A DNA stretch of 64,000 nt. Origin: a virus. Taxonomy: Duplodnaviria > Heunggongvirae > Uroviricota > Caudoviricetes. The DNA lies in IMG/VR virus record IMGVR_UViG_3300046096_000174, positions 8,024-72,023 of that record; one strand, given 5' to 3'. Shown here piece after piece: positions 9,765 to 50,451 of this stretch. How positions within the stretch are numbered: the first letter of the stretch is position 1; every line of letters begins with the position of its first letter. The translations under genes and the position numbers were made by a program. Below the pieces are notes generated by a model, which saw only the letters and a list, made by a program, of their open reading frames with translations, made no database searches and had not been told where the DNA came from.

Positions 9765-10334
9765 TTAATCCTTTTGTAGTTTAGGGTCAAGCATAAATTC
9801 CAACAAGAACATCGCATTAACGGCTACAGCAGCCATGTGAGGCATATCTGGTGCGCTGCTATCAGTGTCATATAATTCGCCCCTTCTAATGGCCTCAAAA
9901 TGCCTCATAAGGGCATCCATATAACGCTGCTCTGCGTTAGGTACTTTCTGCCAGTTATTACGCTCCTTGTACTTCTTTAACCCTTCGGTTAAATTACGTG
10001 CAACTTCCTGTAATGCATACGGAGGTACTAATGTGTATTGTACTTTACCGTCATCATACTTTGTACCTGCCATCTGAGTACCAGTAGTTTCTGGCATACC
10101 TGACGCTATCCAGTTTTCCATTTCACTTTTTACAGCTTTCAATGGGTCCTCCTTATATTCTTTCCAAATAATTTTATCCGCAGAGCAGTTAACTCTTTCA
10201 TTAAGGCTCCTACATAAGGTTACATCGGTATCTGTATTTCCGACACAACCTTCACATGGAGAACCTGAAGGTTCTTTTATAAAGTAGTAGGTCTTACCGT
10301 CAAGCTTCATTTTGAGGGTATCCTTCGAAACCAT
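9765..10334 (-). CDS. Putative dATP/dGTP diphosphohydrolase N-domain-like protein with an N-terminal Cys cluster
   Basis: The C-terminal segment YMDALMRHFEAIRRGELYDTDSSAPDMPHMAAVAVNAMFLLEF resembles the dGTP-diphosphohydrolase N-terminal domain of mycobacteriophage MazG-type proteins. The N-terminus has CEGCVGN...C...C. Confidence 0.45.
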   Translation of the reverse strand: MVSKDTLKMKLDGKTYYFIKEPSGSPCEGCVGNTDTDVTLCRSLNERVNCSADKIIWKEYKEDPLKAVKSEMENWIASGMPETTGTQMAGTKYDDGKVQYTLVPPYALQEVARNLTEGLKKYKERNNWQKVPNAEQRYMDALMRHFEAIRRGELYDTDSSAPDMPHMAAVAVNAMFLLEFMLDPKLQKD

Positions 10335-14181: not shown

Positions 14182-14621
14182 TTATTCCTTTCCAGATACT
14201 TAATAGCTTCTTGTAGAAACAATGTATTATCTTTAAAACTTCCTAAGCCTCTATTACAATTAGTACATAAAAGACCACGGATTTTACCTGTTGCGTGGCA
14301 GTGGTCGATATGTGTCAATTTACCTTCTTCAGATAAAGAAGTTAAACATATGGCACAAGAATATTGTTGACTCTGCAACATACTCCTTCTATCATCTAGT
14401 GATAAATCATATTTAGTTTTAAAATAAGAACCCCGTCTAGCTTCTTTATAGTAAGGTGAATCTTTATTCTCTGAATGCCATTTCCTAGATTTAGCTGTGG
14501 CACACACTTTGCAATAGTATGCATAGCCTCTGATGGCTGTAGAATCTTTGTGAAATTCTGAGAATATCTTATGGGAATCGCATGCCTTACAGTAGAGAGT
14601 ATCAACTCTTACTTCTATCAT
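14178..14621 (-). CDS. Recombination endonuclease VII-like (HNH-type Holliday junction resolvase)
   Basis: Canonical Endonuclease_7 motif CAICLTSL...HIDHCHATGKIRGLLCTNCNRGLG. Confidence 0.65.
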   Translation of the reverse strand: MIEVRVDTLYCKACDSHKIFSEFHKDSTAIRGYAYYCKVCATAKSRKWHSENKDSPYYKEARRGSYFKTKYDLSLDDRRSMLQSQQYSCAICLTSLSEEGKLTHIDHCHATGKIRGLLCTNCNRGLGSFKDNTLFLQEAIKYLERNK

Positions 14622-14970
14622 GGATTTCCTTCACTAAATAGATAAATACTTCTAGCCTATTTCGTCTAGCTTGCATAATCATGTTTGCAGTTCCTTTGCT
14701 AACACCATCCCATACTGCGATTAAAGCATCAGCATATTCAGCCATTTCTTTATTCCGCATAGGTCCAGCTGCACGACCATTTTTATTCCAATCAGCAGGA
14801 AACCCTACTACAGGAATATTCGCACCTAAGGCATAGATTTCACCTAAGGTATCGACACCTTTTGCTTTACCTGACACTACCTCTGTAATTTCAAATCCAG
14901 AAGCTTTAATAGCATCTTGCACTATATTGAAACTTGTGAAGTCTCTGCCACCAGCAATAATTACTTTCAT
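14602..14970 (-). CDS. SLOG/DprA-LOG-like Rossmann protein (DUF2493-like)
   Basis: MKVIIAGGRDF...GxD...PMRNKEM pattern, as in YspA/LOG-type nucleotide-binding domains. Confidence 0.4.
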   Translation of the reverse strand: MKVIIAGGRDFTSFNIVQDAIKASGFEITEVVSGKAKGVDTLGEIYALGANIPVVGFPADWNKNGRAAGPMRNKEMAEYADALIAVWDGVSKGTANMIMQARRNRLEVFIYLVKEIHDRSKS

Positions 14971-17808: not shown

Positions 17809-18135
17809 ATTACTCCTTCAAAGTATACTGAAATACCTAGTGTTACCAAATTACACTACTACCACACCGTAGGTCAGAATCGAACTGACATTAGATACTT
17901 CAGTATACCCTCAGTCCCTAAACTGAAAATATACTGTCTTTCATATTCGGTACAACGTCAGGGGTTGTATTATTCCGTATCTGTTTGACGACTGTCATCA
18001 AGTCTAGAAGGCCCGTACTGTTACTCGACTAATTGTAACATGTATTTTACCTATACGTGCCCTGTCGGGTCGCATAGCGCCGAAGTGTGCTGCTAACTCT
18101 AGGGATACGAGCAACAAGCATGGCGGGACTTATTT

Positions 18136-18237
18136 TGGTGCAACTGGATGGGCTCGAACCATCGGCTTGGTTTTCCCTCTGGCATTAGGTCCTTCACCAT
18201 GAAGAGGTTCCTGCTCTACCAACTGAGCTACAGTCGC
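18136..18237 (-). tRNA. tRNA-like element with an abnormal central region, about 102 nt
   Basis: Minus-strand reading GCGACTG-TA-GCTCAGTTGGTAGAGC ... GATGGTTCGAGCCCATC-CAGTTGC-A-CCA. The acceptor stem, D-arm and T-arm are canonical. The 49-nt segment between the D and T arms has no standard 5-7-5 anticodon arm. Its best pairing is CCTCT/AGAGG enclosing 22 nt. Confidence 0.4.
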
Positions 18238-18587
18238 AAATCGTAATGTCTTTTTCTATGGCAATTCGCACAAAGAAGTAGACACTTATCTAATTCATCT
18301 TCAATTTTCTTACTCCATGATGTTGCCCTTACCTTTGAAATATTAAAATCTTTTTCTTCTGGATTCATATGATGAAAATCATAGATTGCTTGATGGTCAA
18401 TTATACCACAATCTTCACAGCTACCACCCTTATACTCAACCGCCAATTTTTTAAAACTTCTCTGTCTTTCAAGTGTAGTTTCATGGATACAAACCTTGCA
18501 CCAAGAATGGAACTGATTTTTTCTTCTACCATAAAATTCTTTTAAATTTTTCTCTTGCTTACATCTACTACATGTTTTAGTTTCCAT
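18228..18587 (-). CDS. HNH homing endonuclease
   Basis: Cys clusters with CANCHRKRH. The stop codon lies inside the 5' acceptor stem of the downstream tRNA-like element. Confidence 0.7.
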   Translation of the reverse strand: METKTCSRCKQEKNLKEFYGRRKNQFHSWCKVCIHETTLERQRSFKKLAVEYKGGSCEDCGIIDHQAIYDFHHMNPEEKDFNISKVRATSWSKKIEDELDKCLLLCANCHRKRHYDLRL

Positions 18588-18600: not shown

Positions 18601-18679
18601 TGGCGCGTCTGGAGGGATTCGAACCCCCATTGACTCCATTACGATACTACGGTGTAGAAGACCGTTTCGGTACAGACGC
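18601..18679 (-). tRNA. tRNA-like element lacking a normal D-arm (possible Arg-UCU anticodon arm)
   Basis: Acceptor GCGTCTG/CAGACGC-G-CCA. T-arm GGGGG-TTCGAAT-CCCTC. Hairpin ACGGT-CTTCTAC-ACCGT. Only 5 nt separate the acceptor and the anticodon stem. Confidence 0.35.
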
Positions 18680-18747: not shown

Positions 18748-19218
18748 TCATTGCTCCATTGTACCAAGAAATTTGAAGTTCTCAACAACTACTTGCAATT
18801 TAAACAAATAATTTCTACTGTAAGAACCTACATCACCTCCTACTACAATACGATGATACATTTTATCAGCAATCATATCCTTCAACAAATAAGTCTTAAT
18901 GATATAAGCACCGATTGTACCATCTGGTTTATGAATCTTGTACAGGTAGTAGTCAGCTTTTGAAATTGCTATTCCAGAAGCACGACCCCAACTTTCATAT
19001 TCTACACCAATATTGCCAGTTCTTGCACAACTAAAATCTTCTTTGATTTCAATCGTTACCTCACGCCCTTTAGGAAAACGCATACGTAAATCATAGTCTG
19101 AGTTATTACACTCATCTACAAAAGCGAGTCCATGCTTTTCAGCTAGGAAGCTTGCTATTTGCTTTTCAGTTTTACGTGCTATCTTAAAGTCGGTAGCAAA
19201 GTCGTAATTAGGCTGCAT
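18748..19218 (-). CDS. Hypothetical protein (possible PD-(D/E)xK-like D...EIK motif)
   Basis: DYDLRM...VTIEIKED pattern only; weak. Confidence 0.3.
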   Translation of the reverse strand: MQPNYDFATDFKIARKTEKQIASFLAEKHGLAFVDECNNSDYDLRMRFPKGREVTIEIKEDFSCARTGNIGVEYESWGRASGIAISKADYYLYKIHKPDGTIGAYIIKTYLLKDMIADKMYHRIVVGGDVGSYSRNYLFKLQVVVENFKFLGTMEQ

Positions 19219-20938
19219 TCAATTGTGAGTTAAGCAAACTACGAATTTCATCTACACTAGTTTCTTTCACAAGTTTACCATCTTTAAAGACAGTTTGCAA
19301 GCAACCTTGAGCTTCTTGCTCTTTAGTTTGTTGGTCATACAACACAAACTTACCGTCTTCAAACTCAACTCGCAATAAACCCTTAGCAGACTTCTTAGTA
19401 CCGCTGTCAGTGATAGGGTCTTTGTATAACTCAGAACCTTCACCATTAACTTCGGCATAAGTAGCTTTCATAGCAAAACCAAATGAATCACGAGTGACGT
19501 ATTGGTAAGTATAAGAGCCGATACCGAAGACTACGTTACTAGAAGCAAAACCCTTGGCTTTCAAACGCTTGAGAATTTGGTCAGCACGTTCTAAGGTAAT
19601 TGAATCACCGTAGATTAAGCCAACGTGTTCATCAAGCATCTTAAAGCCTTCGGCATTTACTGTGCCACCGAAAGTATCCCATAAGCATTGTACTGCACCT
19701 TTTTGTGCTGGTGACAATTCAACTGGTTCGAAACTAACAAGTCGGCTACCATCAATATAGTAGTATTGTTTGTCGTAACGATTCCACTCAAGTTCAACAG
19801 TTGCCAAATATACTTGACCTTCAAACAAGAAGTAATCACTTGGCGCATCATCACCTATTTCACCGTGGTCGGTTTCTGCACGTACACGAGATTCAATTAC
19901 ATCCTCTGCCCAACGTTTAGCCTCTTCTAGCGTAGTTGAGTTAAGTTTTTGAATCTCAATACCACAAAGAATCTCAACAGGGTCACCACTATCAGGACGG
20001 AATACAACTTTGTTCAAACCGATAGCGTTAGGAGTACGAGCCATAATCTCAGGCTTTAACTCTTTAGCCATGTCGGTAATAACATGCCAGAAATCCCATG
20101 TATCGCTAACAATACTGACAACACCAGAAGGACATACTTCAGTAATCAAACGGCGAAATGTTTCAATCTCTGATTCTTTACCACCAGCGCACATAACGCT
20201 ATGTTCAGTAGCAGGTACAGAACCACCGATAAACGTATTTAAACCACCGTAGAAGGCTTCCAAATAGTCAATGGCAGGGATAGTATCAGTACCCAAGAAA
20301 GACGTTAAGTGACCGCTGGCGCTGGCTGCATCATTCAGACCGCTTAAACCACGGTAGCTGAAGTCGTGACCTTGCCACAATACGAAGTCCAATGGCGCAC
20401 CAGTTTCCTTAGCATATTTGGTAAGAATCTTGCGATACTCAAACGCAGTAGTCGCAGTAGTGATTGGCTTCCACAATTCAGTACTAACTGCAGTCTCAAG
20501 ATAGTTAGTCAACCAGAAAAATTCTGGCAATGTATTCTTGATAGTGAGTACTGGAACTTTGATATCTACCAATGAACCTTCTGGCAAAGCTTTGATTTCG
20601 ATAGGCAAGTAGCCTAAGTCCCACAATGCTGCAATATGGTCAGTACCAACTACACCTTCACCAAGTGCCATATCTACACGGCGCTTGTATTCAGATACTA
20701 CGACAGCTTTTGGTTTGGCGAAGAAACCGTAGTGAAAAGCTTCCATCAAGAAAGACTTGATAAAACCTTGCAAACCAAACATCACAATTTGGTCAGGCTT
20801 CTTAGCGCCAGCACTAGGTGCAAGACGGTTAGAGCGTGGTGTGAAGTTACTGTAAATCATGGTAGTACCTTTAGGGTACATATCTTTGTGACCTACTTTA
20901 TAAAAATCACATGCTGTCATCGGGTTAATATAACTCAT
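19208..20938 (-). CDS. Nicotinamide phosphoribosyltransferase family protein (NadV/NAMPT-like; candidate Namat of a NARP1-type pathway)
   Basis: N-terminal TACDFYKVGHKDMYPKG (NAMPT D-S/F-YK-H motif). About 575 aa. Confidence 0.75.
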   Translation of the reverse strand: MSYINPMTACDFYKVGHKDMYPKGTTMIYSNFTPRSNRLAPSAGAKKPDQIVMFGLQGFIKSFLMEAFHYGFFAKPKAVVVSEYKRRVDMALGEGVVGTDHIAALWDLGYLPIEIKALPEGSLVDIKVPVLTIKNTLPEFFWLTNYLETAVSTELWKPITTATTAFEYRKILTKYAKETGAPLDFVLWQGHDFSYRGLSGLNDAASASGHLTSFLGTDTIPAIDYLEAFYGGLNTFIGGSVPATEHSVMCAGGKESEIETFRRLITEVCPSGVVSIVSDTWDFWHVITDMAKELKPEIMARTPNAIGLNKVVFRPDSGDPVEILCGIEIQKLNSTTLEEAKRWAEDVIESRVRAETDHGEIGDDAPSDYFLFEGQVYLATVELEWNRYDKQYYYIDGSRLVSFEPVELSPAQKGAVQCLWDTFGGTVNAEGFKMLDEHVGLIYGDSITLERADQILKRLKAKGFASSNVVFGIGSYTYQYVTRDSFGFAMKATYAEVNGEGSELYKDPITDSGTKKSAKGLLRVEFEDGKFVLYDQQTKEQEAQGCLQTVFKDGKLVKETSVDEIRSLLNSQLNAA

Positions 20939-20948
20939 TTAAACTCCT

Positions 20949-21749
20949 TTAAATTACTGTCACAGAATCTGCAACAGATTGGTTCATGTTGTTGTGTACG
21001 TAGATTGTAGCATAGAGTTTCAACAATTCATCCGTACCTTTAGAAAAAATTCCGTGGGTTACGTAAAGATTGAGAGATGTAATATTTGGCTGTGTTCGCT
21101 TTAGCATTTCAGCCAAGGACAAGAACGTGGCTCCACCATCACAGATATCATCAACTACGCATACGTTTCCACAGATTGTATCATAAGATTCGTCAACATA
21201 GACTACTTGACCATCTTTACGAACCTTTAGCAGTGTGTGGCAAGGCGTACCTAAGCTAACCTGATAGTGTGTCAGAACCTTATCAGCTGCGCCCTTATCT
21301 GGTGCAATCAATACATCAAATTTAGGTAAGTACTTTGCACAAGATGCTTGTGTCATGTGCTTCAACTGCATACCATAAGAGGCTAAAACATGTGCAGTAA
21401 CCTCACTGTGAACATCCTTCACATAGATGTTGTTGTAGTGCGGGAATGCTTTAAGCATGTGACCGAAGACCCGCAAGGCAAAACTCTCACCTTCATGGCA
21501 TACACGGTCTTGACGACCATAAGGTACGTAGGGAATATGCAAGTCGATTTTCTCACGGGGTACACCTTGCTGATAGAGGGCATCCAGCATGTTAAACGTC
21601 ATGAAAATTTCATCAGAAGAAGGCATGGTCATAATGATATCAACCTTCTCGTGAAGTTCAACCAGTGGTAATTTAATACCAACTTCACCAGCTGGAAATT
21701 TCCATTGCTGAAAACTAGTTGGTTTTCCGTTCAAGCGTAATTCTAACAT
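20949..21749 (-). CDS. Ribose-phosphate pyrophosphokinase (Prs)-family protein (candidate Adps of a NARP1-type pathway)
   Basis: PRPP-binding loop VVDDICDGGATF and a Prs-like N-terminal domain. Lies immediately upstream of the NAMPT-like gene. Confidence 0.65.
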   Translation of the reverse strand: MLELRLNGKPTSFQQWKFPAGEVGIKLPLVELHEKVDIIMTMPSSDEIFMTFNMLDALYQQGVPREKIDLHIPYVPYGRQDRVCHEGESFALRVFGHMLKAFPHYNNIYVKDVHSEVTAHVLASYGMQLKHMTQASCAKYLPKFDVLIAPDKGAADKVLTHYQVSLGTPCHTLLKVRKDGQVVYVDESYDTICGNVCVVDDICDGGATFLSLAEMLKRTQPNITSLNLYVTHGIFSKGTDELLKLYATIYVHNNMNQSVADSVTVI

Positions 21750-21927
21750 CTTCGGTTCCTTTCAATAGTTGAGCAACCTTAAGTAGGTCACTCTCTGGCA
21801 TTTGCATGGCATCAAGTATAACACCATTTTTATCTAGTTTCTGCAAACAGAAAAAATCTTTGCTGTAAGCGTAAGTGAAGTCGTTTTGCATTAGTGGCAC
21901 TGACCCCAAGACATACCGGGAATCCAC
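21715..21927 (-). CDS. Hypothetical small protein
   Basis: ORF between the polymerase and the Prs-like gene, overlapping both. Confidence 0.3.
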   Translation of the reverse strand: MDSRYVLGSVPLMQNDFTYAYSKDFFCLQKLDKNGVILDAMQMPESDLLKVAQLLKGTEDVRITLERKTN

Positions 21928-24182
21928 TCAAAGCCTAACTCTACCTTCAACTTAAGCTCTTCCACGGCCTTCTTAATACCAATATCAATGCACTCAACTG
22001 GAGCCGTTTTAAAGCCTACGTAAGGCCCCTTAGAACCATGTCCAATAGCACTAGAGCCTTCGCACAATGCAGCCTTCGCATCCTCTTCTGTCGCAAAGCC
22101 CTTAACCTGCATCAACTGAGGGTGACAAGCCATTTGTTGCTCGTCATGCATGTGAATCAACCACCAGACTTTTACATCTTCCTTTGAGTGCTTGAATGGG
22201 TCACCTAAGATATTACGCTCTTCCATAGCTTCAGCTAAACGAATAGCAGACCACTTAGCAGAGATAGCACCTCCAGATTGGAATAGGACGTTAATAAGGC
22301 TGTGTTTACTGCGAGTTGATAGCAACCTACCATCCAAGCCTTGAATGTACTTCTTACCGCTGTATTCCCATGACTTCTCAACCCTTTCTTTTAACTCCTT
22401 CAGTGCAGGTACAGCTTCCCAATATTCATTGAATAAGCGTTTACCTTCATCTTCGGAGATACCTAACATCTTAGCAAGCTTCTTAGGTTGAGCGCCATAA
22501 ATCGCAGCATAAGAAAATGACTTAGCTGAGTTACGGTCAATACCTAATTTACGAGCGTTAATACTGTGAATATCGTTAGGCTTTTCTGCCACCAAAGCTT
22601 CAGCTAATGCAGGACCATCCGTATATTTCATAACGTAGTGTCCCATAACTCGTGCCTCAAGTGAAGCGAAGTCATAGCCTAGTTGCCACAAGCCTTTACC
22701 TGCACCAAATAGGTTACGCATTTGTTCACCATACAGCGAAGTAACACGAGGCACATTACAAACAATCTTATGGCGATAACGTCCAGTATTAGCTCCTAAA
22801 GTATCTGCAGGAGTAGGAATGCGACCATCTTCACGGACGTTACTCAAGAAGCCAGTTACAGGGTCACCATCATCGTCCAGCACACCACCAGCAATTGAAT
22901 TACGGCGGTGACGATACGTGTAGTAATGCACTACGTCTTTAACGAAGCCAGCCTTCTCCCCTAAGCTAATCAGGTTAGGGCAGATTTCTTTTTCAACACC
23001 TACAGTAAGCTTTGGAGTTGTTGGCAAGTAAATAGGTTTTGAGCCATTGATTTTACCTTGCAGGAAACGCTCTAGGTTTTCCATCTTGCAGCCAAGCATC
23101 TCTAGGCGCAAGTCTTTGAATACTGAGGTTTCAGTTTGAGCTACGTAGCGTTCAATAGCTACTAAGATTTCGTCATAAGTACGAACAGATTTATCCGTCT
23201 TCTTAACAATATCTCGTTCCTTGACTTCTGAAGGTTCCCAACCTAAGGAAATCAGATAGCCTTTAACCACATCAATATCTTCAATATCTGCAACTACGTG
23301 CGTCTTCAATGGTTCTTGAGTAGTGATAGGAAATGTTTTCCCTTCGAGAACAATCGTTCCCTTATCCTCTGATAATACAGCACCAGTTTTCTCACAGAAC
23401 TTAATCAAGTTAGAAGAGATATCACCATTTTTCTTAAAGCGAATCTTTGGCAGTTCAAAAAAGCTTGCAGCTATCTTAGACATGCGTTTCTGAGGCAGCA
23501 TAGGGTCAACTACTACAGCGATATCCTGCATCATCTTATTGAGTTCTACAAGGTTTTGCTCTGCTAGTTTGACATTGAAATCAAAGCCGAACAGTTCTTG
23601 ACGTAAGGTTAAGTCCGTGAGTTTAATCTCAACAGAGTATGAACGGCTCCAATCATGGTCTTCTTGCTCTTCGATAAGCTTGTAGTGAACAGTTTCGTTG
23701 ACACTAGTATCTTGGATACAGTAGTCCAGCATCTCTTGAGAGAAGCGGTCCCACTCTTCAAAATGGGTTTTATGGTTGCCAAGGCGCTTACCCCATGCAT
23801 CAAGGCTGTGTCCACCAAAGCGGTCAGGACTGAGAAGCTTTGACCACAAGAGTGTATCTGTAACCTTGCAAGGCTTACCAAAGACTAGCGAAGGCTTATC
23901 TGGATAACCAATCTGATAGTCAAGCACACCGTACAGCATGAGTACTGGCAAGTCGAAGGCTACGATGTTGTGACCAATTAGCTCAGTGCAATCACGCAGA
24001 ATGTGCTGAAGCTTTTGCTTAGTAATTTCCTCTTTAACCAAAGAAATTACAGCCTTAGTGTCTAAGTTGCGGATAACCACACACCAGACCTTGTAATCAG
24101 GCTTCAGACAGTAAGGCATAGTCGAGTAGTCCAAACCATTCTGTAGTAGGTTGGTACTCTCAATGTCGATAATGAAACGCAT
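21891..24182 (-). CDS. DNA polymerase, family A (T7 gp5-like) with an N-terminal 3'-5' exonuclease
   Basis: Exo I IDIEST and Exo II GHNIVAFDLPVL. Pol motif A YDFASLEARVMGHY, motif B RNSAKSFSYAAIYG and motif C HMHDEQQ. Confidence 0.85.
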   Translation of the reverse strand: MRFIIDIESTNLLQNGLDYSTMPYCLKPDYKVWCVVIRNLDTKAVISLVKEEITKQKLQHILRDCTELIGHNIVAFDLPVLMLYGVLDYQIGYPDKPSLVFGKPCKVTDTLLWSKLLSPDRFGGHSLDAWGKRLGNHKTHFEEWDRFSQEMLDYCIQDTSVNETVHYKLIEEQEDHDWSRSYSVEIKLTDLTLRQELFGFDFNVKLAEQNLVELNKMMQDIAVVVDPMLPQKRMSKIAASFFELPKIRFKKNGDISSNLIKFCEKTGAVLSEDKGTIVLEGKTFPITTQEPLKTHVVADIEDIDVVKGYLISLGWEPSEVKERDIVKKTDKSVRTYDEILVAIERYVAQTETSVFKDLRLEMLGCKMENLERFLQGKINGSKPIYLPTTPKLTVGVEKEICPNLISLGEKAGFVKDVVHYYTYRHRRNSIAGGVLDDDGDPVTGFLSNVREDGRIPTPADTLGANTGRYRHKIVCNVPRVTSLYGEQMRNLFGAGKGLWQLGYDFASLEARVMGHYVMKYTDGPALAEALVAEKPNDIHSINARKLGIDRNSAKSFSYAAIYGAQPKKLAKMLGISEDEGKRLFNEYWEAVPALKELKERVEKSWEYSGKKYIQGLDGRLLSTRSKHSLINVLFQSGGAISAKWSAIRLAEAMEERNILGDPFKHSKEDVKVWWLIHMHDEQQMACHPQLMQVKGFATEEDAKAALCEGSSAIGHGSKGPYVGFKTAPVECIDIGIKKAVEELKLKVELGFEWIPGMSWGQCH

Positions 24183-33005: not shown

Positions 33006-33440
33006 ATGCAACCAGAATTCGAAATCTTGGCTAACCGTATGGGTCTTGGCGAAGAAGAGCGCAGCCTAGCTGAAATCGTTTGGAAACAGTGCGAGAAGAC
33101 TATGACAGGTAAAGGTGGACTTAAGGCCGCATTGTTCGGTGGTGAAGTAGTCAACTTCGAACCTCGCAGCACTGTTATCTTACACAACATTGAAACACTT
33201 ACTCGTGAAGAGATTGATTTCATGGTGTGGTTGAACCGCAACACATTAAACGGTATCGAGGAAATGAAGATGTTTCTCAAACGTAATATTGATTTGGAGT
33301 GGACCCGCGCTAATCCAGATGACCCAATGACGCAAGGTAACTTCGAAATGATGAACAACATGAAAGACATGTCACGTAAACTTAAACGTCAAACAAAGAT
33401 GCTATCATCTATCCAACGTAAACTCAAGAAGGCTCATTAA
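33006..33440 (+). CDS. Hypothetical protein
   Basis: RBS AAAGGAG. ORF. Confidence 0.45.
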   Translation: MQPEFEILANRMGLGEEERSLAEIVWKQCEKTMTGKGGLKAALFGGEVVNFEPRSTVILHNIETLTREEIDFMVWLNRNTLNGIEEMKMFLKRNIDLEWTRANPDDPMTQGNFEMMNNMKDMSRKLKRQTKMLSSIQRKLKKAH

Positions 33441-33787
33441 TGTCTGTTAGGAAACGCTACACTATTGTTGCTACGTGCTTTGACCGTAAAGGTAAGGTAC
33501 TTGGCACTGGTGCAAATAACTACAACAAGTCACATCCTTTGATGCAGCACTTTGCAGTTAAAGCTGGAGAGTCCGATGAAAAGATTTATCAACATGCAGA
33601 GCTAAACGCTGTGCTACAATCTGGACGTAAAGATATCCATAGCATCCTAGTGCAGCGTTTCCACGACAACGGTGATATGGCTATCGCTAAACCGTGCCCA
33701 ACTTGTCAAGCTATGCTGAAAGGTTTTGGTGTTAAGCTTGTGCGTTATACAACTGAAGAAGGAGTTAAAGAATATGAAATTTTATAA
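33440..33787 (+). CDS. Hypothetical protein (CPTCQ Cys pair)
   Basis: ORF coupled by ATGA overlap. Confidence 0.4.
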   Translation: MSVRKRYTIVATCFDRKGKVLGTGANNYNKSHPLMQHFAVKAGESDEKIYQHAELNAVLQSGRKDIHSILVQRFHDNGDMAIAKPCPTCQAMLKGFGVKLVRYTTEEGVKEYEIL

Positions 33788-34028
33788 TCCGTTTAAGCCA
33801 CACATTGTGGAACACGCTAATGGTAAGTTTGCTGTACGCAAACGCTGCTTTTGGGGTTGGGAGTACAAGGACAAAAAGTGCTTCGTAAGCACTTACAGTA
33901 ATGATATTGCATGGTGGAACCTTGATAGTATCAAGTATTGTTATGTTGATAGCTATGATGCTGCTGTAAAGGTAATGGATAGCCGCTATACTAACGAGCA
34001 TGAAGTTATTCGTATCTATCATGTTTAA
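33774..34028 (+). CDS. Hypothetical protein, tandem paralogue A (YNPFKPHIVEHANGKFAVRKR...)
   Basis: RBS GAAGGAG before the ATG at 33774. Paralogous to the next gene. Confidence 0.4.
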   Translation: MKFYNPFKPHIVEHANGKFAVRKRCFWGWEYKDKKCFVSTYSNDIAWWNLDSIKYCYVDSYDAAVKVMDSRYTNEHEVIRIYHV

Positions 34029-34290
34029 GTACAATATTTTCAAACCTCACATCGTAAAGTTTGCCGATGGTAATTATGCTGTGCGTAAGCGTGGTTGGTG
34101 CGGTTTACTGTGGGTCTACAAGGATAGAAGCGCATGGCTTGGAGGCTTCTTTGAAAGTATTATGTGGTGGGATATCGGTCACATTGACCACTGCAAGGTA
34201 AGCACTTTTGACAAAGCCTTAGAGGTTAAACAAATGGAAGCACCTAATAATAAAAAACCTAATGAGATTGTGGAAGTTTACTATGGCTAA
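34021..34290 (+). CDS. Hypothetical protein, tandem paralogue B (YNIFKPHIVKFADGNYAVRKR...)
   Basis: ATGTTTAA overlap with the previous gene. Confidence 0.4.
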   Translation: MFKYNIFKPHIVKFADGNYAVRKRGWCGLLWVYKDRSAWLGGFFESIMWWDIGHIDHCKVSTFDKALEVKQMEAPNNKKPNEIVEVYYG

Positions 34291-34735
34291 TCAAAAAGAA
34301 CTTGACAGTGTGTACATGCAGACTGCATTAACTCATGCAATGCTATCTAAAGCGAAGAGAGCACAGGTAGGGGCCGTTTTAGTCACTGGTCATGGGGTAA
34401 CCCTCACTGGTTATAATGGCACTGCTAGAGGTCGTGATAATCGCTGTGAGGCATTAGAACCACAACCGTTTCCACATGAGTCAATACTAGTCACAAAACC
34501 AGAAGTAATTCACGCTGAATTAAACTGCATCTTAAAAGCTGCTCGTGAAGGTGTAAGCTGCATTGATTCAACAGTGTACGTTACCCTTGCACCGTGTATT
34601 CAGTGCAGTGCTATGATGGTTCAAGCTGGCGTAAGGCGACTAGTCTATAAGACACCTTATCGTGATGCATCTGGACTAGCGCTGCTTGAAGGCTCTGGTG
34701 TACGCATTCAACAGTACAGCGAGACACAATTATGA
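34283..34735 (+). CDS. dCMP deaminase (cytidine/deoxycytidylate deaminase family)
   Basis: Zinc-binding motifs HAELNCI (H-A-E) and PCIQCSAMM (PCxxC). Confidence 0.7.
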   Translation: MANQKELDSVYMQTALTHAMLSKAKRAQVGAVLVTGHGVTLTGYNGTARGRDNRCEALEPQPFPHESILVTKPEVIHAELNCILKAAREGVSCIDSTVYVTLAPCIQCSAMMVQAGVRRLVYKTPYRDASGLALLEGSGVRIQQYSETQL

Positions 34736-35941: not shown

Positions 35942-36117
35942 GCCAAGGTCATAACTTTAATCGTACACTAAATGCTAAGGGTATGTTCATTTACTGCGGA
36001 AAGTGTGGTTTAATACGTCTAGGTAATCGTGTAACCGAAAAGGCTATCAACAAACCTTGTGGTGGTGTACGCGATTTAGATGACGATGAATACTTAAAAC
36101 TGAAAGGTAAGAAATGA
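35938..36117 (+). CDS. 59-aa zinc-ribbon mini-protein (CGKCG...CGG), not in track
   Basis: ATGA overlaps. Open 60 codons. Confidence 0.3.
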   Translation: MSQGHNFNRTLNAKGMFIYCGKCGLIRLGNRVTEKAINKPCGGVRDLDDDEYLKLKGKK

Positions 36118-36512
36118 AACCAATACTATATCTAATCCGTGGCGTAAGTGGCGCTGGTAAAAGTACGTTTGCTCAACGCCTATGGGAAGCTGGTGTTGTA
36201 GAGCGAGTATTTGAAGCTGACGATTGGTTTTATACTGATGGTGAGTATAAGTTCGAGCCTTCAGGTTTGAGGGCTGCACATAACGCATGCCAAGAGAACA
36301 CAAGATTTTGCTTACAGCAAGGCAAGTCTGTGGCTGTAGCTAATACGTCTACAACAGAGTTTGAAGTTCTGGTGTATCGTCACATTGCCGAAGAATGCAA
36401 TGCACATCTTATCAGTGTGATTGTTGAAAATCGCCATGATGGTGTTAACATCCACGGTGTACCAGAAGAGAAACTTAAACAGATGAAGGAGCGTTTTAGT
36501 GTTAAGCTTTGA
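36114..36512 (+). CDS. P-loop kinase (polynucleotide kinase / nucleotide kinase-like)
   Basis: Walker A GVSGAGKST at the N-terminus. 132 aa, minimal kinase domain. Confidence 0.55.
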   Translation: MKPILYLIRGVSGAGKSTFAQRLWEAGVVERVFEADDWFYTDGEYKFEPSGLRAAHNACQENTRFCLQQGKSVAVANTSTTEFEVLVYRHIAEECNAHLISVIVENRHDGVNIHGVPEEKLKQMKERFSVKL

Positions 36513-37365
36513 CCAACAAATGAACTTAGTGAACCGTGGGTTAGCTATCATGAAGAATGACGGTAAATTCACTACGTTTAAATACCACCGCCGAGCTATG
36601 TACGAATATCTGTGGTTCAATGAATATGACCTTCACGAATGTCGTGGGCATGTCTATGATTCAGCAACTAAAGAGTTAGTACAAGCAGCACCACGCAAGT
36701 CTTTCAATTATAAAGAGAATGACCTATGGTGGGCCGCTACAGATTTAGATACACGAGTAGAAGTGTATAAGAAAGTCAATGGCTACATGGCATGTGCTAC
36801 GTTGCACAATGGTGAATTAGTGGTATCAACTACTGGCTCAACTACTTCTGAATATGCTCAGTGGGCTAAGGAGTTAATTGTCAAAGATTATGCACTATAT
36901 GACATGATTATTGACAAGGACGCTACTGTGCTATTTGAAGTCGTAGTACCGCAAGACCCTCATATTGTTGAAGAACGTATGGGTTTACACTTGTTAGGTA
37001 TCCGTGAAAAAGCTAGTGGTAAGTTCCATCCATCAGGTCGTGCTGGTCTTATGACTTTAGCAGAAGCTATTGCATTGGCTGAAACAGACCGAGGTGAAGG
37101 CTTTATGGTTTATCGTGCAGATTGTGCAGAGAAAACCGCACCATGCAAGTTAAAGACACCTTACTATGTTGGTAAGAAGAAACTAATGCGTATGTCAGCT
37201 AAGAATGTAAGTGCTATGTATGATAATGGCTTTCAGATTGCAAATACATTACCAGATATGTGGTACGATGTACCTAGAGTTATTGTACAAACCTATACCA
37301 AAGAAGATTGGTTAAGTTTCAATGACCAACAACGCCGAGTATTTTTAGAAGCTTTGAAAGGTTAA
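36499..37365 (+). CDS. ATP-dependent RNA ligase-like nucleotidyltransferase
   Basis: Motif I KVNGYMA, motif IV GEGFMVYR and motif V KLKTPYY. Adjacent to the P-loop kinase. Confidence 0.5.
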   Translation: MLSFDQQMNLVNRGLAIMKNDGKFTTFKYHRRAMYEYLWFNEYDLHECRGHVYDSATKELVQAAPRKSFNYKENDLWWAATDLDTRVEVYKKVNGYMACATLHNGELVVSTTGSTTSEYAQWAKELIVKDYALYDMIIDKDATVLFEVVVPQDPHIVEERMGLHLLGIREKASGKFHPSGRAGLMTLAEAIALAETDRGEGFMVYRADCAEKTAPCKLKTPYYVGKKKLMRMSAKNVSAMYDNGFQIANTLPDMWYDVPRVIVQTYTKEDWLSFNDQQRRVFLEALKG

Positions 37366-37753: not shown

Positions 37754-38248
37754 ATGAAACATTTAGAAGGTGATTTGATTGAATTAGCTCGTGCAGGGCA
37801 TTTCAACTATATCGTTCAAGGTTGCAATTGTTTTTGCACTATGGGTAAAGGTATCGCTAAACAAATTAAGAAAGAATTTCCTGCAGCTTATGCAGCCGAT
37901 TGCTTGACTTTCTATGGTGACCGTGCTAAACTCGGTACATACAGTATTATGTATGGCCCTATCACCGTTATCAATGCATACACTCAGTATGATTTTGCTA
38001 AAGGCTACGATGGTACTGGTGATTACTTCGAGTACGAAGCATTCCAAAAAGTCCTAGACCGTTTGGTTAAAGACCACGGTCACCGTGACTTCGGTTTTCC
38101 CTACATTGGTATGGGACTAGCTGGAGGTGATAGTAAACGCATTCTAGGTATGCTACAAGGCTTTGCAGATGCTGTTAAGCTTAAGGGAGGGTCAGTAACA
38201 TTAGTGAAGTACCCTATGAATAGAATTTTACGAAAGGAAACAGCTTGA
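37754..38248 (+). CDS. Macro domain protein (ADP-ribose / ADPR-1''-phosphate processing family)
   Basis: Macro signatures IVQGCNCFCTMGKGIA and GFPYIGMGLAGGD. Confidence 0.6.
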   Translation: MKHLEGDLIELARAGHFNYIVQGCNCFCTMGKGIAKQIKKEFPAAYAADCLTFYGDRAKLGTYSIMYGPITVINAYTQYDFAKGYDGTGDYFEYEAFQKVLDRLVKDHGHRDFGFPYIGMGLAGGDSKRILGMLQGFADAVKLKGGSVTLVKYPMNRILRKETA

Positions 38249-39144
38249 TTTCAGCTAAAATTATTGCCGACAGTTTTAACCCAACTTTCGATGCACGTAT
38301 TACAACTTTCGAATTGGTATACCCACGATTTATTCACGGTGAGTTAATGACCCACCGAGTATTCAGCCGCAATGCTGCAAGTTCTCGTGCTATTCCAATC
38401 GATAAGGTTATTGAGCTAGTCGAAGCAACTCCAGCTATGCCTGTGCATTGGGGTGCTAACCAAGCAGGTATGCAAGCCAAAGAAGAAGTCGTAGGTAAAG
38501 AACTAGCTAAGTTATTATGGCTTAATGCTCGTGATAGTGCCGTAGCTAACGCACGACTATTACAGAAGGCAGGACTGCATAAGCAGATTGTCAACCGTGT
38601 ATTGGAACCATTCCAACTCATTAAAACAATCGTCACTGCTACTCAATGGAATAACTGGTTTTGGTTGCGTGACCATGTGGATGCACAACCAGAGATTGCA
38701 GAATTAGCTGCAGTTATGGCTATTGCTTATGATGCAAGCGCACCAGAATTACTAGTTAATAACGAATGGCATGTACCTTACGTTAAAACATTGGTAAGTC
38801 CCTATCAAGGTCGTATCTATTTAGATGAACTTGATAACTACATTACTGTAGAAGAAGCGCGAATGATTAGTGCCAGCTGTTGCGCTCAGGTTAGCTATCG
38901 TAAGAATGATGGTAGCCTAGAGAAAGCTTCTATGGTATTTGACCGATTAATTAACTCAGTGCCAGTGCATGCTTCACCAGTTGAGCATATCGCTACACCG
39001 ATTCCTTATGAGAGTTTCGCAGGTGATTATTTAGATATTGAAGGTGTAACCCATATCGACAAGAATAATGTCCCACACAGCGGTAATTTTCATGGTTGGA
39101 TTCAATTCCGTCAGTTAATTCCTAACAACGTCAAAGCACTATGA
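38245..39144 (+). CDS. thyX: Flavin-dependent thymidylate synthase
   Basis: ThyX signature RHR-x7-S (MTHRVFSRNAASSRA). Confidence 0.75.
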   Translation: MISAKIIADSFNPTFDARITTFELVYPRFIHGELMTHRVFSRNAASSRAIPIDKVIELVEATPAMPVHWGANQAGMQAKEEVVGKELAKLLWLNARDSAVANARLLQKAGLHKQIVNRVLEPFQLIKTIVTATQWNNWFWLRDHVDAQPEIAELAAVMAIAYDASAPELLVNNEWHVPYVKTLVSPYQGRIYLDELDNYITVEEARMISASCCAQVSYRKNDGSLEKASMVFDRLINSVPVHASPVEHIATPIPYESFAGDYLDIEGVTHIDKNNVPHSGNFHGWIQFRQLIPNNVKAL

Positions 39145-44861: not shown

Positions 44862-45082
44862 GCCATGAACTAGCAGAAACCGAATGGAAAGGTATGCCTG
44901 AGTTCGTACAAGACAAGCAAGAACCCTATGCTAAGATTATCATTCGCTTTCGCAATCAAGAAGACTTAGACGAGTTTGCTAACCTAGTCGGTCAAAAGCT
45001 TACAGCTAAAACCAAAAGCATGTGGCATCCGTTCTTAGAGCGAGGTATCAACGCGAATAAAAGGTACGTAGATGAATCCTAA
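44858..45082 (+). CDS. Hypothetical protein
   Basis: ORF. Confidence 0.3.
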   Translation: MSHELAETEWKGMPEFVQDKQEPYAKIIIRFRNQEDLDEFANLVGQKLTAKTKSMWHPFLERGINANKRYVDES

Positions 45083-50265: not shown

Positions 50266-50451
50266 ATGACACAGGACCAAATCAAGAACAGCGCATACAT
50301 GCAAGCGGTACAACAGGCAGGACGCGAAGCCGCCAACAGCGATAAAATGACGCACTACGCAGTGCAAGAAGCCGCCGACAAATACGGCGTACAATACAAT
50401 CAAGTTCGTTTTGCCATGTTCGACATTATCAACAACAAGAAGACAAAATAA
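50266..50451 (+). CDS. Hypothetical protein (GC-rich island gene 1)
   Basis: RBS-like AGGGGCAGAGA before the ATG. GC3-rich codon usage distinct from the rest of the phage. Confidence 0.4.
   Translation: MTQDQIKNSAYMQAVQQAGREAANSDKMTHYAVQEAADKYGVQYNQVRFAMFDIINNKKTK

What the first reader, a model, noticed from the sequence alone, without database searches (positions are those of the whole stretch)
19208..21749. Adjacent Prs-like and NAMPT-like genes: candidate NARP1-type NAD+ reconstitution (anti-defence) pair in the replication operon
A PRPP-synthetase-family protein (VVDDICDGGATF loop) lies immediately upstream of a full-length NAMPT-family protein (CDFYKVGHKDMYPKG). This exact pairing was recently described as NARP1: Adps, an ADPR pyrophosphokinase, and Namat, which rebuild NAD+ from ADPR and nicotinamide. 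The pathway lets phages escape NAD-depleting defences such as Thoeris, DSR, SIR2/SEFIR and TIR systems. Alternatively it is a classical NadV/Prs salvage pair. No NMN adenylyltransferase is visible nearby, which favours the NARP1 reading.
Basis: partly seen in the sequence, partly recalled or inferred. Interest (0 to 1): 0.7.

Follow-up and report, generated by a model that had tools for sequence, protein, structure and literature searches.

The report
Phage NAD+ rebuilding gene pair (NARP1)
Two adjacent phage genes carry the sequence hallmarks of the known NARP1 pair (Adps and Namat), which rebuilds NAD+ from the fragments left by NAD-destroying bacterial defences; this is a well-supported but ordinary new example of a pathway found in about 4% of sequenced phages.

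Summary
On the minus strand, a 266-aa Prs-like gene (20949-21749) lies 10 nt upstream of a 576-aa NAMPT-like gene (19208-20938), directly after DNA polymerase A.

Both proteins pass the published sequence tests for NARP1. The Prs-like protein groups with the three experimentally verified Adps enzymes (ICP1, SPbetaL1, FADO) at 100% bootstrap, apart from eight cellular Prs. It keeps the catalytic lysine and acceptor residues and has the remodelled PP loop DDICDGGATF (ICP1: DDICDGAASF). It scores below NCBI's Prs cut-off.

The NAMPT-like protein carries the Namat adenine-clamp motif GSYTYQYVTRD, identical to ICP1 Namat. Its closest solved structure is Namat itself. It separates from KVP40-type Nampt in 100 of 100 bootstraps.

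No NMN adenylyltransferase, Nudix, NadR or PnuC gene is present anywhere in the 64-kb window.

Activity and anti-defence effect remain inferred. This is a new member of a known kind, so interest is low.

The main extra is a Macro-domain protein 16 kb away (37754-38248), 36% identical to the verified ADPR-1''-phosphate phosphatase Adpp. It hints at an unlinked NARP1-AP arrangement.

The parts
20949..21749 (-). adps-like gene (266 aa): predicted ADP-ribose pyrophosphokinase, the first NARP1 enzyme
   Evidence: The ORF is listed.

Similarity: 36% identity and 101 bits to the structurally and biochemically characterised ICP1 Adps. Against E. coli Prs it gives 26% and 50 bits.

Phylogeny: an NJ tree places it with ICP1, SPbetaL1 and FADO Adps at 100% bootstrap, apart from 8 cellular Prs.

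Residues equivalent to ICP1 F18/R87/H121/D161/K185/D212/D213/D216 are F18/R79/H114/D151/K175/D200/D201/D204.

TIGR01251 scores 99.8 bits, below the cut-off of 113. SPbetaL1 Adps behaves the same way at 106 bits, and E. coli Prs scores 423.
21123..21152 (-). Adps-type PP loop, residues 200-209 (DDICDGGATF)
   Evidence: The ICP1 Adps PP loop is DDICDGAASF. PMC13586617 describes the remodelled PP loop (C215-S220) with the F221 lid as the ATP-donor site.

In my alignment:
- Position 221 is F in 20 of 20 Adps-clade sequences and L/I/M in 8 of 8 cellular Prs.
- Position 217 is T or S in Prs and G here.
- Position 215 is C here, as in most of the clade.
19208..20938 (-). namat-like gene (576 aa): predicted nicotinamide ADP-ribose transferase, the second NARP1 enzyme
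   Evidence: The ORF is listed.

Sequence matches to solved structures:
- 9w5x/9w5w, 527 bits. This is SPbetaL1 Namat, confirmed at 100% identity.
- Haemophilus ducreyi NadV (HdNadV), 467 bits.
- Human NAMPT, about 261 bits.

Identity is 53-54% to SPbetaL1, FADO and ICP1 Namat, and 30-33% to KVP40 and RB43 Nampt. The split between the two groups appears in 100 of 100 bootstraps.

The AF2 model has pLDDT 91. Its top Foldseek hits are 'Namat' entries with TM 0.94-0.95.

The catalytic core is intact: D11, Y13, F193, R196, D218, H246, R314, D316.
19487..19519 (-). Namat selectivity-clamp helix motif, residues 474-484 (GSYTYQYVTRD)
   Evidence: It matches the published Namat signature GS-X-phi-X-phi-X-phi-TRD with aromatic X (PMC12774641, read).

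- Identical to ICP1 Namat.
- SPbetaL1 has GSFTYQYNTRD.
- KVP40 Nampt has GGGLLQQLDRD.
- Xanthomonas campestris (Xcc) Nampt has GGALLQKVDRD.

 The clamp-loop stacking arginine, SPbetaL1 R40, is present as R38.
19709..19957 (-). 83-aa insertion in Namat (residues about 328-410) after the RPDSGDP...CG strand
   Evidence: - Absent from SPbetaL1, FADO and ICP1 Namat, and from the 92%-identical metagenomic relative L011.
- Present and alignable in Bacillus phage Tsamsa.
- Shorter in several other phage Namats.
- Most close metagenomic homologues are 570-583 aa.
- The AF2 model folds it confidently as one helix (337-355) plus three strands.

It is a variable accessory subdomain and not a disruption of the enzyme.
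21715..21891 (-). 58-aa ORF linking polA to adps
   Evidence: Its ATG overlaps the polA stop codon (TAATG), and its end overlaps the adps start by 35 nt. It is conserved at 63% in relative L011. It has no family hit.

It supports co-transcription of the pair with the replication genes. It is probably not part of the pathway.
37754..38248 (+). Macro-domain protein (164 aa): candidate unlinked Adpp-like ADPR-1''-phosphate phosphatase (possible accessory, not shown)
   Evidence: - Pfam Macro scores 25 bits against a cut-off of 22.
- PHROG 335 'phosphatase' scores 144 bits.
- 36% identity, 83 bits, E 1e-25 to Vibrio phage Gary Adpp KNV71_gp137. That protein was shown to convert ADPR-1''P to ADPR for NARP1 (bioRxiv 10.64898/2026.01.28.702374).
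- 45% identity to the Macro gene directly downstream of Namat in Acinetobacter phage CP14.

The family is broad, with 2,400-2,700 phage records, many of them phages without NARP1.

Best explanation
The two genes are a NARP1 module. They are expressed with the replication genes of a roughly 82-kb tailed phage of unknown (freshwater or wastewater metagenome) host.

Proposed mechanism:
1. A host defence (SIR2, TIR or SEFIR type: Thoeris I, DSR1/2, SIR2-HerA/Nezha and others) cleaves NAD+ into ADP-ribose and nicotinamide.
2. The 266-aa Adps-like enzyme transfers the beta,gamma-pyrophosphate of ATP to the 1'' hydroxyl of the distal ribose of ADP-ribose, making ADPR-PP.
3. The 576-aa Namat-like enzyme displaces that pyrophosphate with nicotinamide and regenerates NAD+ directly. 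No NMN adenylyltransferase is needed.

Shown here: homology, clade membership, conservation of the catalytic and specificity residues, gene order and coupling, and absence of NMNAT, NadR and PnuC in the window.

Inferred from characterised homologues (SPbetaL1, Bas63, FADO, ICP1): the two reactions and the anti-defence effect.
For: Adps side:
- Closest characterised relative is ICP1 Adps (36% identity, 101 bits). E. coli Prs gives 50 bits and M. jannaschii Prs 47 bits.
- NJ tree with 200 bootstraps: the window protein, 16 phage or metagenome homologues and the 3 verified Adps form a clade at 100%, excluding 8 cellular Prs.
- Catalytic K175 corresponds to ICP1 K185 and SPbetaL1 K162. Acceptor residues F18, R79, H114, D151, D200, D201 and D204 are conserved.
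- The PP loop DDICDGGATF is Adps-type. It has the Phe lid found in 20 of 20 clade members and 0 of 8 Prs.
- It has 17 residues before F18, against 34 or more in the seven full-length cellular Prs. It has 30 residues after the THGIFS motif, against 55-64 in six of them and 41 in the Sphingobium Prs-like protein. This fits the reported loss of alpha11-alpha12 (PMC13586617).
- It scores below the TIGR01251 cut-off, as SPbetaL1 Adps does.

Namat side:
- 527 bits to the SPbetaL1 Namat crystal sequence, against 261 bits to human NAMPT.
- Clamp motif GSYTYQYVTRD and clamp-loop R38 are present.
- All NAM, ribose and phosphate ligands and the catalytic His246 are conserved.
- 100 of 100 bootstraps separate it from KVP40/RB43 Nampt.
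- The AF2 model's best fold match is Namat, with TM 0.94-0.95.

Context:
- 10-nt gap with a strong RBS.
- Same gene order in all 12 related loci fetched.
- No NMNAT, Nudix, NadR or PnuC in the window.
Against: - Nothing here is biochemical. Substrate choice is inferred from motifs defined on a handful of characterised enzymes.
- The Adps-like protein is divergent: 20-29% identity to the three verified Adps in the multiple alignment, or 36% to ICP1 Adps over the 195-residue local match.
- PHROG 619, which holds the phage Adps homologues, scores it no better than E. coli Prs (193.7 against 193.3 bits). That family model therefore does not discriminate.
- Two ICP1 contact residues differ: F92 is C84 and F223 is S211. 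Both positions also vary within the clade.
- My outgroup sampling is small, with 8 Prs of which one is partial, and the tree is a distance tree.
- HdNadV, annotated as an NMN-forming NadV, is almost as similar to the window protein (467 bits) as Namat is. Overall similarity alone cannot decide the substrate. Only the clamp residues do.
- SPbetaL1 Namat itself can make NMN from PRPP in vitro, so some classical activity is likely retained.
- About 18 kb of the estimated genome lies outside the window and was not checked for NMNAT.
Confidence: 0.85

Rival explanations
1. Classical salvage. The first enzyme is a true PRPP synthetase and the second a true NadV/Nampt. Together they make NMN, which host enzymes (NadR or NadD, or PncC followed by NadD/NadE) convert to NAD+. 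This would boost NAD+ in general during infection.
For: - Both proteins belong to the Prs and Nampt superfamilies.
- The catalytic machinery shared with Prs and Nampt is intact.
- SPbetaL1 Namat can make NMN from PRPP in vitro (PMC12774641).
- HdNadV is a close relative of the window protein, at 467 bits.
Against: - The Prs-like protein lacks the Thr of the DT(G/A)GT ribose-5-phosphate loop, having G205 instead. It carries the Adps Phe lid and lacks the Prs N- and C-terminal elements.
- It fails the curated Prs threshold, 99.8 against 113 bits.
- It falls in the Adps clade at 100% bootstrap.
- SPbetaL1 Adps gave no product in the Prs-type assay. Bas63 still overcame SIR2-HerA in a host lacking pncC and nadR (bioRxiv 10.1101/2024.02.11.579819).
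- The NAMPT-like protein has every adenine-clamp residue that HdNadV, KVP40, Xcc and mammalian Nampt lack.
Confidence: 0.07
2. NARP2-like pathway. The NAMPT-like enzyme makes NMN, and a phage Nmnat encoded outside the window completes NAD+ synthesis. The Prs-like enzyme supplies PRPP.
For: About 18 kb of the estimated 82-kb genome is not in the window, so absence of Nmnat is not proven for the whole genome.
Against: - The window protein is only 30-33% identical to KVP40 and RB43 Nampt, and the two groups split in 100 of 100 bootstraps.
- There is no Nmnat, Nudix, NadR or PnuC in 64 kb. That stretch covers the replication, nucleotide-metabolism and early gene regions where such genes usually sit. 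What remains unseen is most likely structural genes.
- No phage was found to carry both NARP1 and NARP2 (bioRxiv 10.1101/2024.02.11.579819).
Confidence: 0.03
3. A diverged pair with a different substrate. An Adps/Namat-like pair that pyrophosphorylates and re-ligates a different ADPR-related or ribosyl compound, such as a modified ADPR or another nucleoside-diphosphate ribose. The 83-aa Namat insertion and the diverged Adps contacts (C84, S211) would alter specificity.
For: - The Adps-like protein is only 20-29% identical to verified enzymes in the multiple alignment.
- Two adenine- or ATP-contact residues differ from ICP1.
- The Namat insertion is a confidently folded, conserved subdomain of unknown role.
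Against: - The differing positions also vary among clade members whose operons otherwise look canonical.
- The Namat adenine clamp is identical to that of ICP1.
- Insertions at the same site occur in homologues from many phage groups, including Felix O1-like phages. The length there is inferred from match coordinates.
- A 92%-identical relative lacks the insertion entirely, so it is dispensable for the core reaction.
Confidence: 0.05

Closest known systems
NARP1 of Vibrio phage ICP1 (NrsA/Adps ORF228 and NrsB/Namat ORF229; structures in PMC13586617)
   Same: - Same two-gene order.
- The Adps PP loop is nearly identical (DDICDGGATF against DDICDGAASF), and the LYVTHGIFSKG segment is identical.
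- Same catalytic Lys and acceptor residues.
- The Namat clamp motif GSYTYQYVTRD is identical.
- Identity in the multiple alignments is 29% for Adps (36% over the 195-residue local match) and 53% for Namat.

   Different: - ICP1 F92 and F223 are C84 and S211 here.
- The window Namat has an 83-aa insertion that ICP1 lacks.
- The pair sits after polA inside the replication cluster, whereas in ICP1 it is at the genome end.
NARP1 of Bacillus phages SPbetaL1 and FADO, and of coliphage Bas63 (Osterman et al., bioRxiv 10.1101/2024.02.11.579819; Namat crystal structures 9w5w/9w5x, PMC12774641)
   Same: - Namat is 54% identical to SPbetaL1 Namat, which is the best PDB match by both sequence and fold.
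- All NAD+-contact residues are conserved, including R38 (SPbetaL1 R40), Y476 (F392) and Y480 (Y396).
- Adps falls in the same clade, and the catalytic Lys is conserved (SPbetaL1 K162).
   Different: - The Adps is only 20-24% identical.
- The Bacillus-phage Adps have RMDR and DDLSS(F/Y)GGTF where the window has RQDR and DDICDGGATF.
- The Namat clamp loop is 6 residues longer here.
- Bas63 itself was not retrieved, so no direct comparison was made.
NARP1-AP of Vibrio phage Gary (Adps-Adpp-Namat; bioRxiv 10.64898/2026.01.28.702374)
   Same: The window encodes a Macro-domain protein 36% identical to Gary Adpp. The motifs CNCFC.MG.GIA, GD..KLG and IG.GLAGGD are shared.
   Different: - In Gary the phosphatase lies between Adps and Namat.
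- Here no Macro gene lies within the operon. The homologue is about 16 kb away on the other strand, next to a small kinase-like gene and an RNA-ligase-like gene.
- The published operational definition, within two genes of NARP1, is not met.
NARP2 of Vibrio phage KVP40 (NadV/Nampt plus NatV/Nmnat)
   Same: Same Nampt superfamily fold and catalytic core. Same overall purpose of restoring NAD+.
   Different: - 33% identity to KVP40 Nampt and 30% to RB43.
- No aromatic clamp motif in those enzymes (GGGLLQQLDRD).
- No Nmnat in the window.
- KVP40-type phages lack an Adps.
Cellular PRPP synthetase (Prs; TIGR01251) and Haemophilus ducreyi NadV (9ke8/9keo)
   Same: Same folds and shared catalytic residues. 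HdNadV is a close relative of the window Namat, at 467 bits.
   Different: - The Prs cut-off is not reached.
- The DT(G/A)GT loop, the N-terminal strand-helix and the C-terminal helices are missing.
- HdNadV has GAQTYQRNTRD, so the clamp aromatics at positions 3 and 7 are Q and R.

Membership tests
Adps (ADPR-PP synthetase, NARP1 enzyme 1) | Falls in the phage Adps clade, separate from cellular Prs (Osterman et al. Fig. 3C) | tested here: met
   NJ/BLOSUM62 tree with 200 bootstraps. The clade holds the window protein, ICP1, SPbetaL1 and FADO Adps, and 16 phage or metagenome homologues. It has 100% support and excludes 8 cellular Prs. Limits: it is a distance tree with a small outgroup.
Adps (ADPR-PP synthetase, NARP1 enzyme 1) | Catalytic beta-hairpin lysine (ICP1 K185, SPbetaL1 K162) and acceptor residues R87, H121, D161, D212, D213, D216 and F18 | tested here: met
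   K175, R79, H114, D151, D200, D201, D204 and F18 are all conserved. These residues are also conserved in Prs, so they show an active enzyme but not its specificity.
Adps (ADPR-PP synthetase, NARP1 enzyme 1) | Remodelled PP loop and donor site (ICP1 C215-S220, Phe221 lid) conserved among Adps and different from Prs DT(G/A)GT(L/I/M) | tested here: met
   The window has DDICDGGATF and ICP1 has DDICDGAASF. F at position 221 occurs in 20 of 20 clade members and 0 of 8 Prs. T or S at position 217 occurs in 8 of 8 Prs, and the window has G. The second lid residue F223 is S here and varies within the clade.
Adps (ADPR-PP synthetase, NARP1 enzyme 1) | Loss of the C-terminal alpha11-alpha12 module of PRPS | tested here: met
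   The window has 30 residues after the THGIFS motif. Six of the seven full-length cellular Prs have 55-64, and the Sphingobium Prs-like protein has 41. The alignment ends before the E. coli C-terminal helices. The window also lacks about 17 N-terminal residues that Prs has.
Adps (ADPR-PP synthetase, NARP1 enzyme 1) | Namat homologue in the immediate vicinity (97% of the clade) | tested here: met
   The Namat-like gene starts 10 nt downstream on the same strand.
Adps (ADPR-PP synthetase, NARP1 enzyme 1) | Converts ADPR plus ATP to ADPR-PP and does not make PRPP | not testable with these tools
   This needs purified protein and LC-MS.
Namat (nicotinamide ADPR transferase, NARP1 enzyme 2) | Nampt-like catalytic core (SPbetaL1 D13, Y15, F189, R192, D215, catalytic His, R306, D308) | tested here: met
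   D11, Y13, F193, R196, D218, H246, R314 and D316 are conserved.
Namat (nicotinamide ADPR transferase, NARP1 enzyme 2) | Selectivity-clamp helix motif GS-X-phi1-X-phi2-X-phi3-TRD with aromatic X at positions 3 and 7 | tested here: met
   Residues 474-484 are GSYTYQYVTRD. The motif is absent from KVP40, RB43, Xcc and HdNadV.
Namat (nicotinamide ADPR transferase, NARP1 enzyme 2) | Selectivity-clamp loop contributes a stacking Arg, Lys or Tyr (SPbetaL1 R40) | tested here: met
   R38 aligns with R40. The loop is 6 residues longer than in SPbetaL1. The paper describes this loop as variable in length.
Namat (nicotinamide ADPR transferase, NARP1 enzyme 2) | Clade distinct from Nampt of phages that carry Nmnat (NARP2) | tested here: met
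   The bipartition {KVP40, RB43} against 11 Adps-associated homologues appears in 100 of 100 bootstraps. Identity is 30-33% across the split and 44-62% within the Adps-associated group, excluding the near-identical relative L011 at 92%. Only two NARP2-type sequences were sampled.
Namat (nicotinamide ADPR transferase, NARP1 enzyme 2) | Prefers ADPR-PP over PRPP and forms NAD+ directly | not testable with these tools
   This needs an enzyme assay.
NARP1 as an anti-defence system | Lets the phage escape NAD+-depleting defences (Thoeris I, DSR1/2, SIR2-HerA, SEFIR) | not testable with these tools
   This needs a deletion or knock-in and plaque assays. The host of this phage is unknown.
NARP1-AP (NARP1 with associated phosphatase) | Macro-domain Adpp gene within two genes of Adps/Namat | tested here: not met
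   The neighbours are polA, orf58, a PD-(D/E)xK-fold ORF, an HNH endonuclease and a DUF7275 protein. None has a Macro domain.
NARP1-AP (NARP1 with associated phosphatase) | Genome encodes an Adpp homologue | tested here: met
   The protein at 37754..38248 is 36% identical to Gary Adpp, E 1e-25. Pfam Macro scores above its cut-off. The family is broad, so shared function is not established.
NARP2 (Nampt plus Nmnat) | Phage-encoded Nmnat (KVP40 NatV type) | tested here: not met
   No CTP_transf_like or Nudix hit was found in any window ORF, and no HxGH motif. About 18 kb of the genome is unseen.
NARP3 (PnuC-like plus NadR-like) | PnuC-like transporter and NadR-like bifunctional enzyme | tested here: not met
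   No such Pfam hits were found in the window.
Canonical PRPP synthetase (Prs) | Reaches the curated family threshold and has the ribose-5-phosphate loop DT(G/A)GT | tested here: not met
   TIGR01251 scores 99.8 bits against a cut-off of 113, and all equivalog models score far below their cut-offs. E. coli Prs scores 423. The loop here reads DGGAT.

The most novel reading that the evidence does not exclude
The phage may run a 'split' NARP1-AP. The Macro-domain protein at 37754..38248 is encoded 16 kb from the Adps-Namat pair, in a different transcription unit beside a small kinase-like gene and an RNA-ligase-like gene. It would dephosphorylate ADPR-1''-phosphate made by RES-type (aRES) defences and feed ADPR to the NARP1 enzymes.

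If so, operon-based surveys undercount NARP1-AP. They report 15% of NARP1 phages, using a two-gene neighbourhood. The very widespread phage Macro 'phosphatase' family would then be a general supplier of ADPR for NAD+ reconstitution.

Homologues of the same kinase-like and RNA-ligase-like genes lie directly upstream of Adps in Pseudomonas phage VCM, and a homologue of the kinase-like gene alone lies near Adps in Vibrio phage Hades. This hints at a larger, loosely linked module.
Probability: 0.3. Interest if true: 0.35.

Novelty: new member of a known kind. Interest (0 to 1): 0.2.

Why it matters
It adds a divergent, uncultured-phage example to NARP1. Its Adps is only 20-29% identical to the verified enzymes in the multiple alignment (36% to ICP1 Adps over the local match).

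It shows that the published structure-derived markers transfer to distant members and separate them from Prs and Nampt. Those markers are the Adps PP loop with its Phe lid and the Namat GSxxxxxxTRD clamp. Generic family models (Pfam, PHROG 619, NCBIfam names) do not make that separation.

In practice, such genes should be annotated as Adps and Namat rather than 'ribose-phosphate pyrophosphokinase' and 'nicotinate phosphoribosyltransferase'.

It also predicts that the phage's unknown host population carries NAD+-depleting defences. It does not open a new question.

Tried and rejected
1. Megablast of the 2.5-kb region against phage records found nothing. The phage has no close sequenced relative. 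Its polA is 90% identical only to a 2.5-kb river-water fragment, and otherwise 44% or less to complete records.

2. I guessed MZ501111 to be Bas63. It is Bas51. Bas63 was never retrieved, so ICP1, SPbetaL1, FADO and Gary served as verified references instead.

3. I suspected that PDB 9ke8 might be KVP40 NadV and searched the phage records with it, without a useful match. Foldseek later named it Haemophilus ducreyi NadV.

4. PHROG 619 as a discriminator was rejected. E. coli Prs scores the same as the window protein, 193.3 against 193.7 bits.

5. The downstream 156-aa ORF overlaps the Namat stop by 11 nt, so I tested it as a third pathway component and rejected that.
   - It has invariant D43, E57 and K59 and a confident PD-(D/E)xK nuclease fold. 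Best matches are Eco15I, I-Ssp6803I, EcoRV, PvuII and Hjc.
   - Its homologues in other phage contigs are not next to NARP1 genes.

6. The Namat insertion as an intein or a gene disruption was rejected.
   - It is too short.
   - It is conserved, with motifs such as WNRYDKQYYYIDG, in most close homologues.
   - It is homologous to the insertion in Bacillus phage Tsamsa.
   - It folds as part of a pLDDT-91 model.

7. The gene between Adps and Namat in Pseudomonas phage VCM was checked as a possible Macro/Adpp gene. It has no Macro hit.

8. Sigma-70 promoter and terminator scans around the pair gave no more sites than shuffled sequence. They are uninformative apart from the lack of a terminator inside the cluster.

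Full report
OBSERVATION

The coordinates 19208-21749 are the outer limits of two minus-strand ORFs. One is a 266-aa Prs-like ORF at 20949..21749. The other is a 576-aa NAMPT-like ORF at 19208..20938.

The genes are 10 nt apart, with AGGAG 7 nt before the second ATG. Upstream lies DNA polymerase A (21891..24182). A 58-aa ORF bridges the two: its ATG overlaps the polA stop, and its end overlaps the Prs-like start. Further upstream are primase-helicase, RNA ligase and DNA ligase. 'In the replication operon' is therefore a fair description.

The window is a tailed phage. It has a terminase, tail fibre, lysis genes and ten tRNAs, at about 40% G+C. It has no close sequenced relative. Related metagenomic contigs are 80-87 kb, so the window probably covers about three quarters of the genome.

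WHAT THE FIRST PROTEIN IS

Generic models only say 'Prs-like'.
- Pfam Pribosyltran_N scores 24 bits, just under its cut-off.
- NCBIfam TIGR01251 scores 99.8 bits against a cut-off of 113. The biochemically verified SPbetaL1 Adps behaves the same way (106 bits), while E. coli Prs scores 423.
- PHROG 619 does not help. E. coli Prs and the window protein score the same.

The decisive comparison uses the 2026 structural study of Vibrio phage ICP1 Adps (PMC13586617). I fetched the verified Adps genes: ICP1, SPbetaL1 and FADO. I added five further phage homologues, eleven metagenomic homologues and eight cellular Prs.

The window protein is 36% identical to ICP1 Adps (101 bits) and 26% identical to E. 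coli Prs (50 bits). In a bootstrapped NJ tree, all phage sequences, including the window and the three verified Adps, form one clade at 100% support that excludes every cellular Prs.

Column by column:
- The catalytic lysine (K175) and the acceptor residues (F18, R79, H114, D151, D200, D201, D204) are kept.
- The PP loop reads DDICDGGATF, against DDICDGAASF in ICP1.
- The Phe that caps the donor ATP is present in all 20 clade members and in none of the 8 Prs.
- The Thr or Ser of the Prs ribose-5-phosphate loop is replaced by Gly.
- The N-terminal strand-helix and the C-terminal helices of Prs are missing.
- Two ICP1 contact residues differ (F92 to C84, F223 to S211), but those positions vary across the clade.

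WHAT THE SECOND PROTEIN IS

Its best match among all solved structures is 9w5x/9w5w at 527 bits. I confirmed that entry to be SPbetaL1 Namat. Human NAMPT scores 261 bits.

The Namat paper (PMC12774641) defines a selectivity clamp. One part is a helix motif, GS-X-phi-X-phi-X-phi-TRD, with aromatic residues that stack on the adenine of ADPR-PP. The other part is a loop that contributes an Arg, Lys or Tyr.
- The window has GSYTYQYVTRD, identical to ICP1 Namat, and R38 aligned with SPbetaL1 R40.
- KVP40 and RB43 Nampt, Xcc Nampt and Haemophilus ducreyi NadV (HdNadV) lack the aromatics.
- All catalytic-core residues, including His246, are conserved.
- Identity is 53-54% to the three verified Namats and 30-33% to NARP2-type Nampt. 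The two groups separate in 100 of 100 bootstraps.
- An AlphaFold2 model (pLDDT 91, pTM 0.89) matches the Namat crystal structures best, with TM 0.94-0.95. HdNadV comes next and human NAMPT after that.

The 83-residue insertion after the RPDSGDP...CG strand is not a defect.
- Most close homologues have it.
- Bacillus phage Tsamsa has a homologous one.
- A 92%-identical relative lacks it cleanly.
- The model folds it as a helix plus a three-stranded sheet.

ALTERNATIVES

NARP2 needs a phage Nmnat, and NARP3 needs PnuC and NadR. A Pfam scan of essentially every ORF in the window found none of these and no Nudix domain. No ORF contains an HxGH motif.

Classical Prs/NadV salvage cannot be excluded biochemically. 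It is disfavoured by the clade placement and by the specificity residues of both enzymes.

MECHANISM

The mechanism is inferred from the characterised homologues.
1. [quoted passage not shown]
2. Namat replaces that pyrophosphate with nicotinamide.
3. NAD+ is rebuilt from exactly the two products of SIR2, TIR and SEFIR NADases.

Expression together with the replication genes would supply this activity during the replication phase of infection.

SURROUNDINGS

The 156-aa ORF that overlaps the Namat stop is a PD-(D/E)xK-fold nuclease-like protein. It is unrelated to NARP1.

A Macro-domain protein lies 16 kb away on the other strand. It is 36% identical to the verified ADPR-1''-phosphate phosphatase Adpp of Vibrio phage Gary. 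It is 45% identical to a Macro gene directly downstream of Namat in an Acinetobacter phage. This raises the possibility of an unlinked NARP1-AP.

Two points weaken that idea. The Macro family is very broad. Its neighbours here, a kinase-like gene and an RNA-ligase-like gene, also fit an RNA-repair role.

VERDICT

This is a genuine but ordinary NARP1 pair. It is a new member of a known kind, and interest is low.

Noticed in passing
window 37754-38248 (+): A Macro-domain protein. Pfam Macro scores 25 bits and PHROG 335 'phosphatase' 144 bits. It is 36% identical to the verified ADPR-1''P phosphatase Adpp of Vibrio phage Gary and 45% identical to the Macro gene next to Namat in Acinetobacter phage CP14. 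It is not linked to the NARP1 pair here.
   Followed up: partly
window 36114-37365 (+); L022:668-2377; L027:1-240: A small AAA_33 kinase-like gene (36114-36512) and an RNA-ligase-like gene (36499-37365) sit just upstream of the Macro gene. Homologues of both lie immediately upstream of Adps in Pseudomonas phage VCM (41% and 34% identity). A homologue of the kinase-like gene alone lies near Adps in Vibrio phage Hades. This may be a loosely linked RNA-repair/ADPR module.
   Followed up: partly
window 18139-18237 (-) and 18604-18679 (-): Two Rfam tRNA matches above the gathering score (45.2 and 39.5 bits against 29) that ARAGORN did not report. They flank the HNH endonuclease ORF at 18228-18587. 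The first has a 41-nt stretch where the model has 15 in the anticodon arm, which looks intron-like. The second has almost no D-arm, a 17-nt variable region and an anticodon loop CUUCUAC.
   Followed up: no
window 17816-17912 (-): A sub-threshold match to YrlA (Y RNA-like, which has a tRNA-like domain): 31.4 bits against a gathering score of 69, E 1.7e-4.
   Followed up: no
window 18748-19218 (-): A 156-aa ORF overlapping the Namat stop by 11 nt. It has invariant D43, E57 and K59. The AF2 model (pLDDT 93) has a PD-(D/E)xK nuclease fold, with best hits Eco15I N-domain, the homing endonuclease I-Ssp6803I, EcoRV and PvuII. Together with the adjacent HNH gene, this makes the stretch downstream of Namat a cluster of endonuclease-like genes.
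   Followed up: yes
window 19709-19957 (-), inside Namat: An 83-aa accessory subdomain (one helix plus three strands) inserted in Namat. It is conserved in most close homologues and in Bacillus phage Tsamsa, and cleanly absent in a 92%-identical relative. Its function is unknown.
   Followed up: partly
window 50000-54000: A composition anomaly. G+C rises to 0.48-0.50 from about 0.40, and AT skew reaches 0.27. The ORFs there, including a 299-aa ORF at 51982-52881, have no Pfam hit.
   Followed up: no
window 45072-45941 (+), 9765-10334 (-), 38245-39144 (+), 33440-34735 (+): Nucleotide and DNA-modification genes:
- a TET-associated glycosyltransferase (TAGT, 168 bits);
- an ORF with the dATP/dGTP diphosphohydrolase N-terminal domain;
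- ThyX;
- two dCMP-deaminase-like ORFs.
These hint that the phage DNA may carry modified bases.
   Followed up: no
window 14602-14970 (-): A YAcAr/SLOG-family protein (Pfam 40 bits) inside the replication and recombination cluster. The same Pfam family is recorded for genes in relatives (L005 and L011).
   Followed up: no
window 58975-59976 (+): A 333-aa protein with very long glycine-rich low-complexity runs, directly after the cluster of ten tRNA genes (57452-58953). It has no family hit.
   Followed up: no
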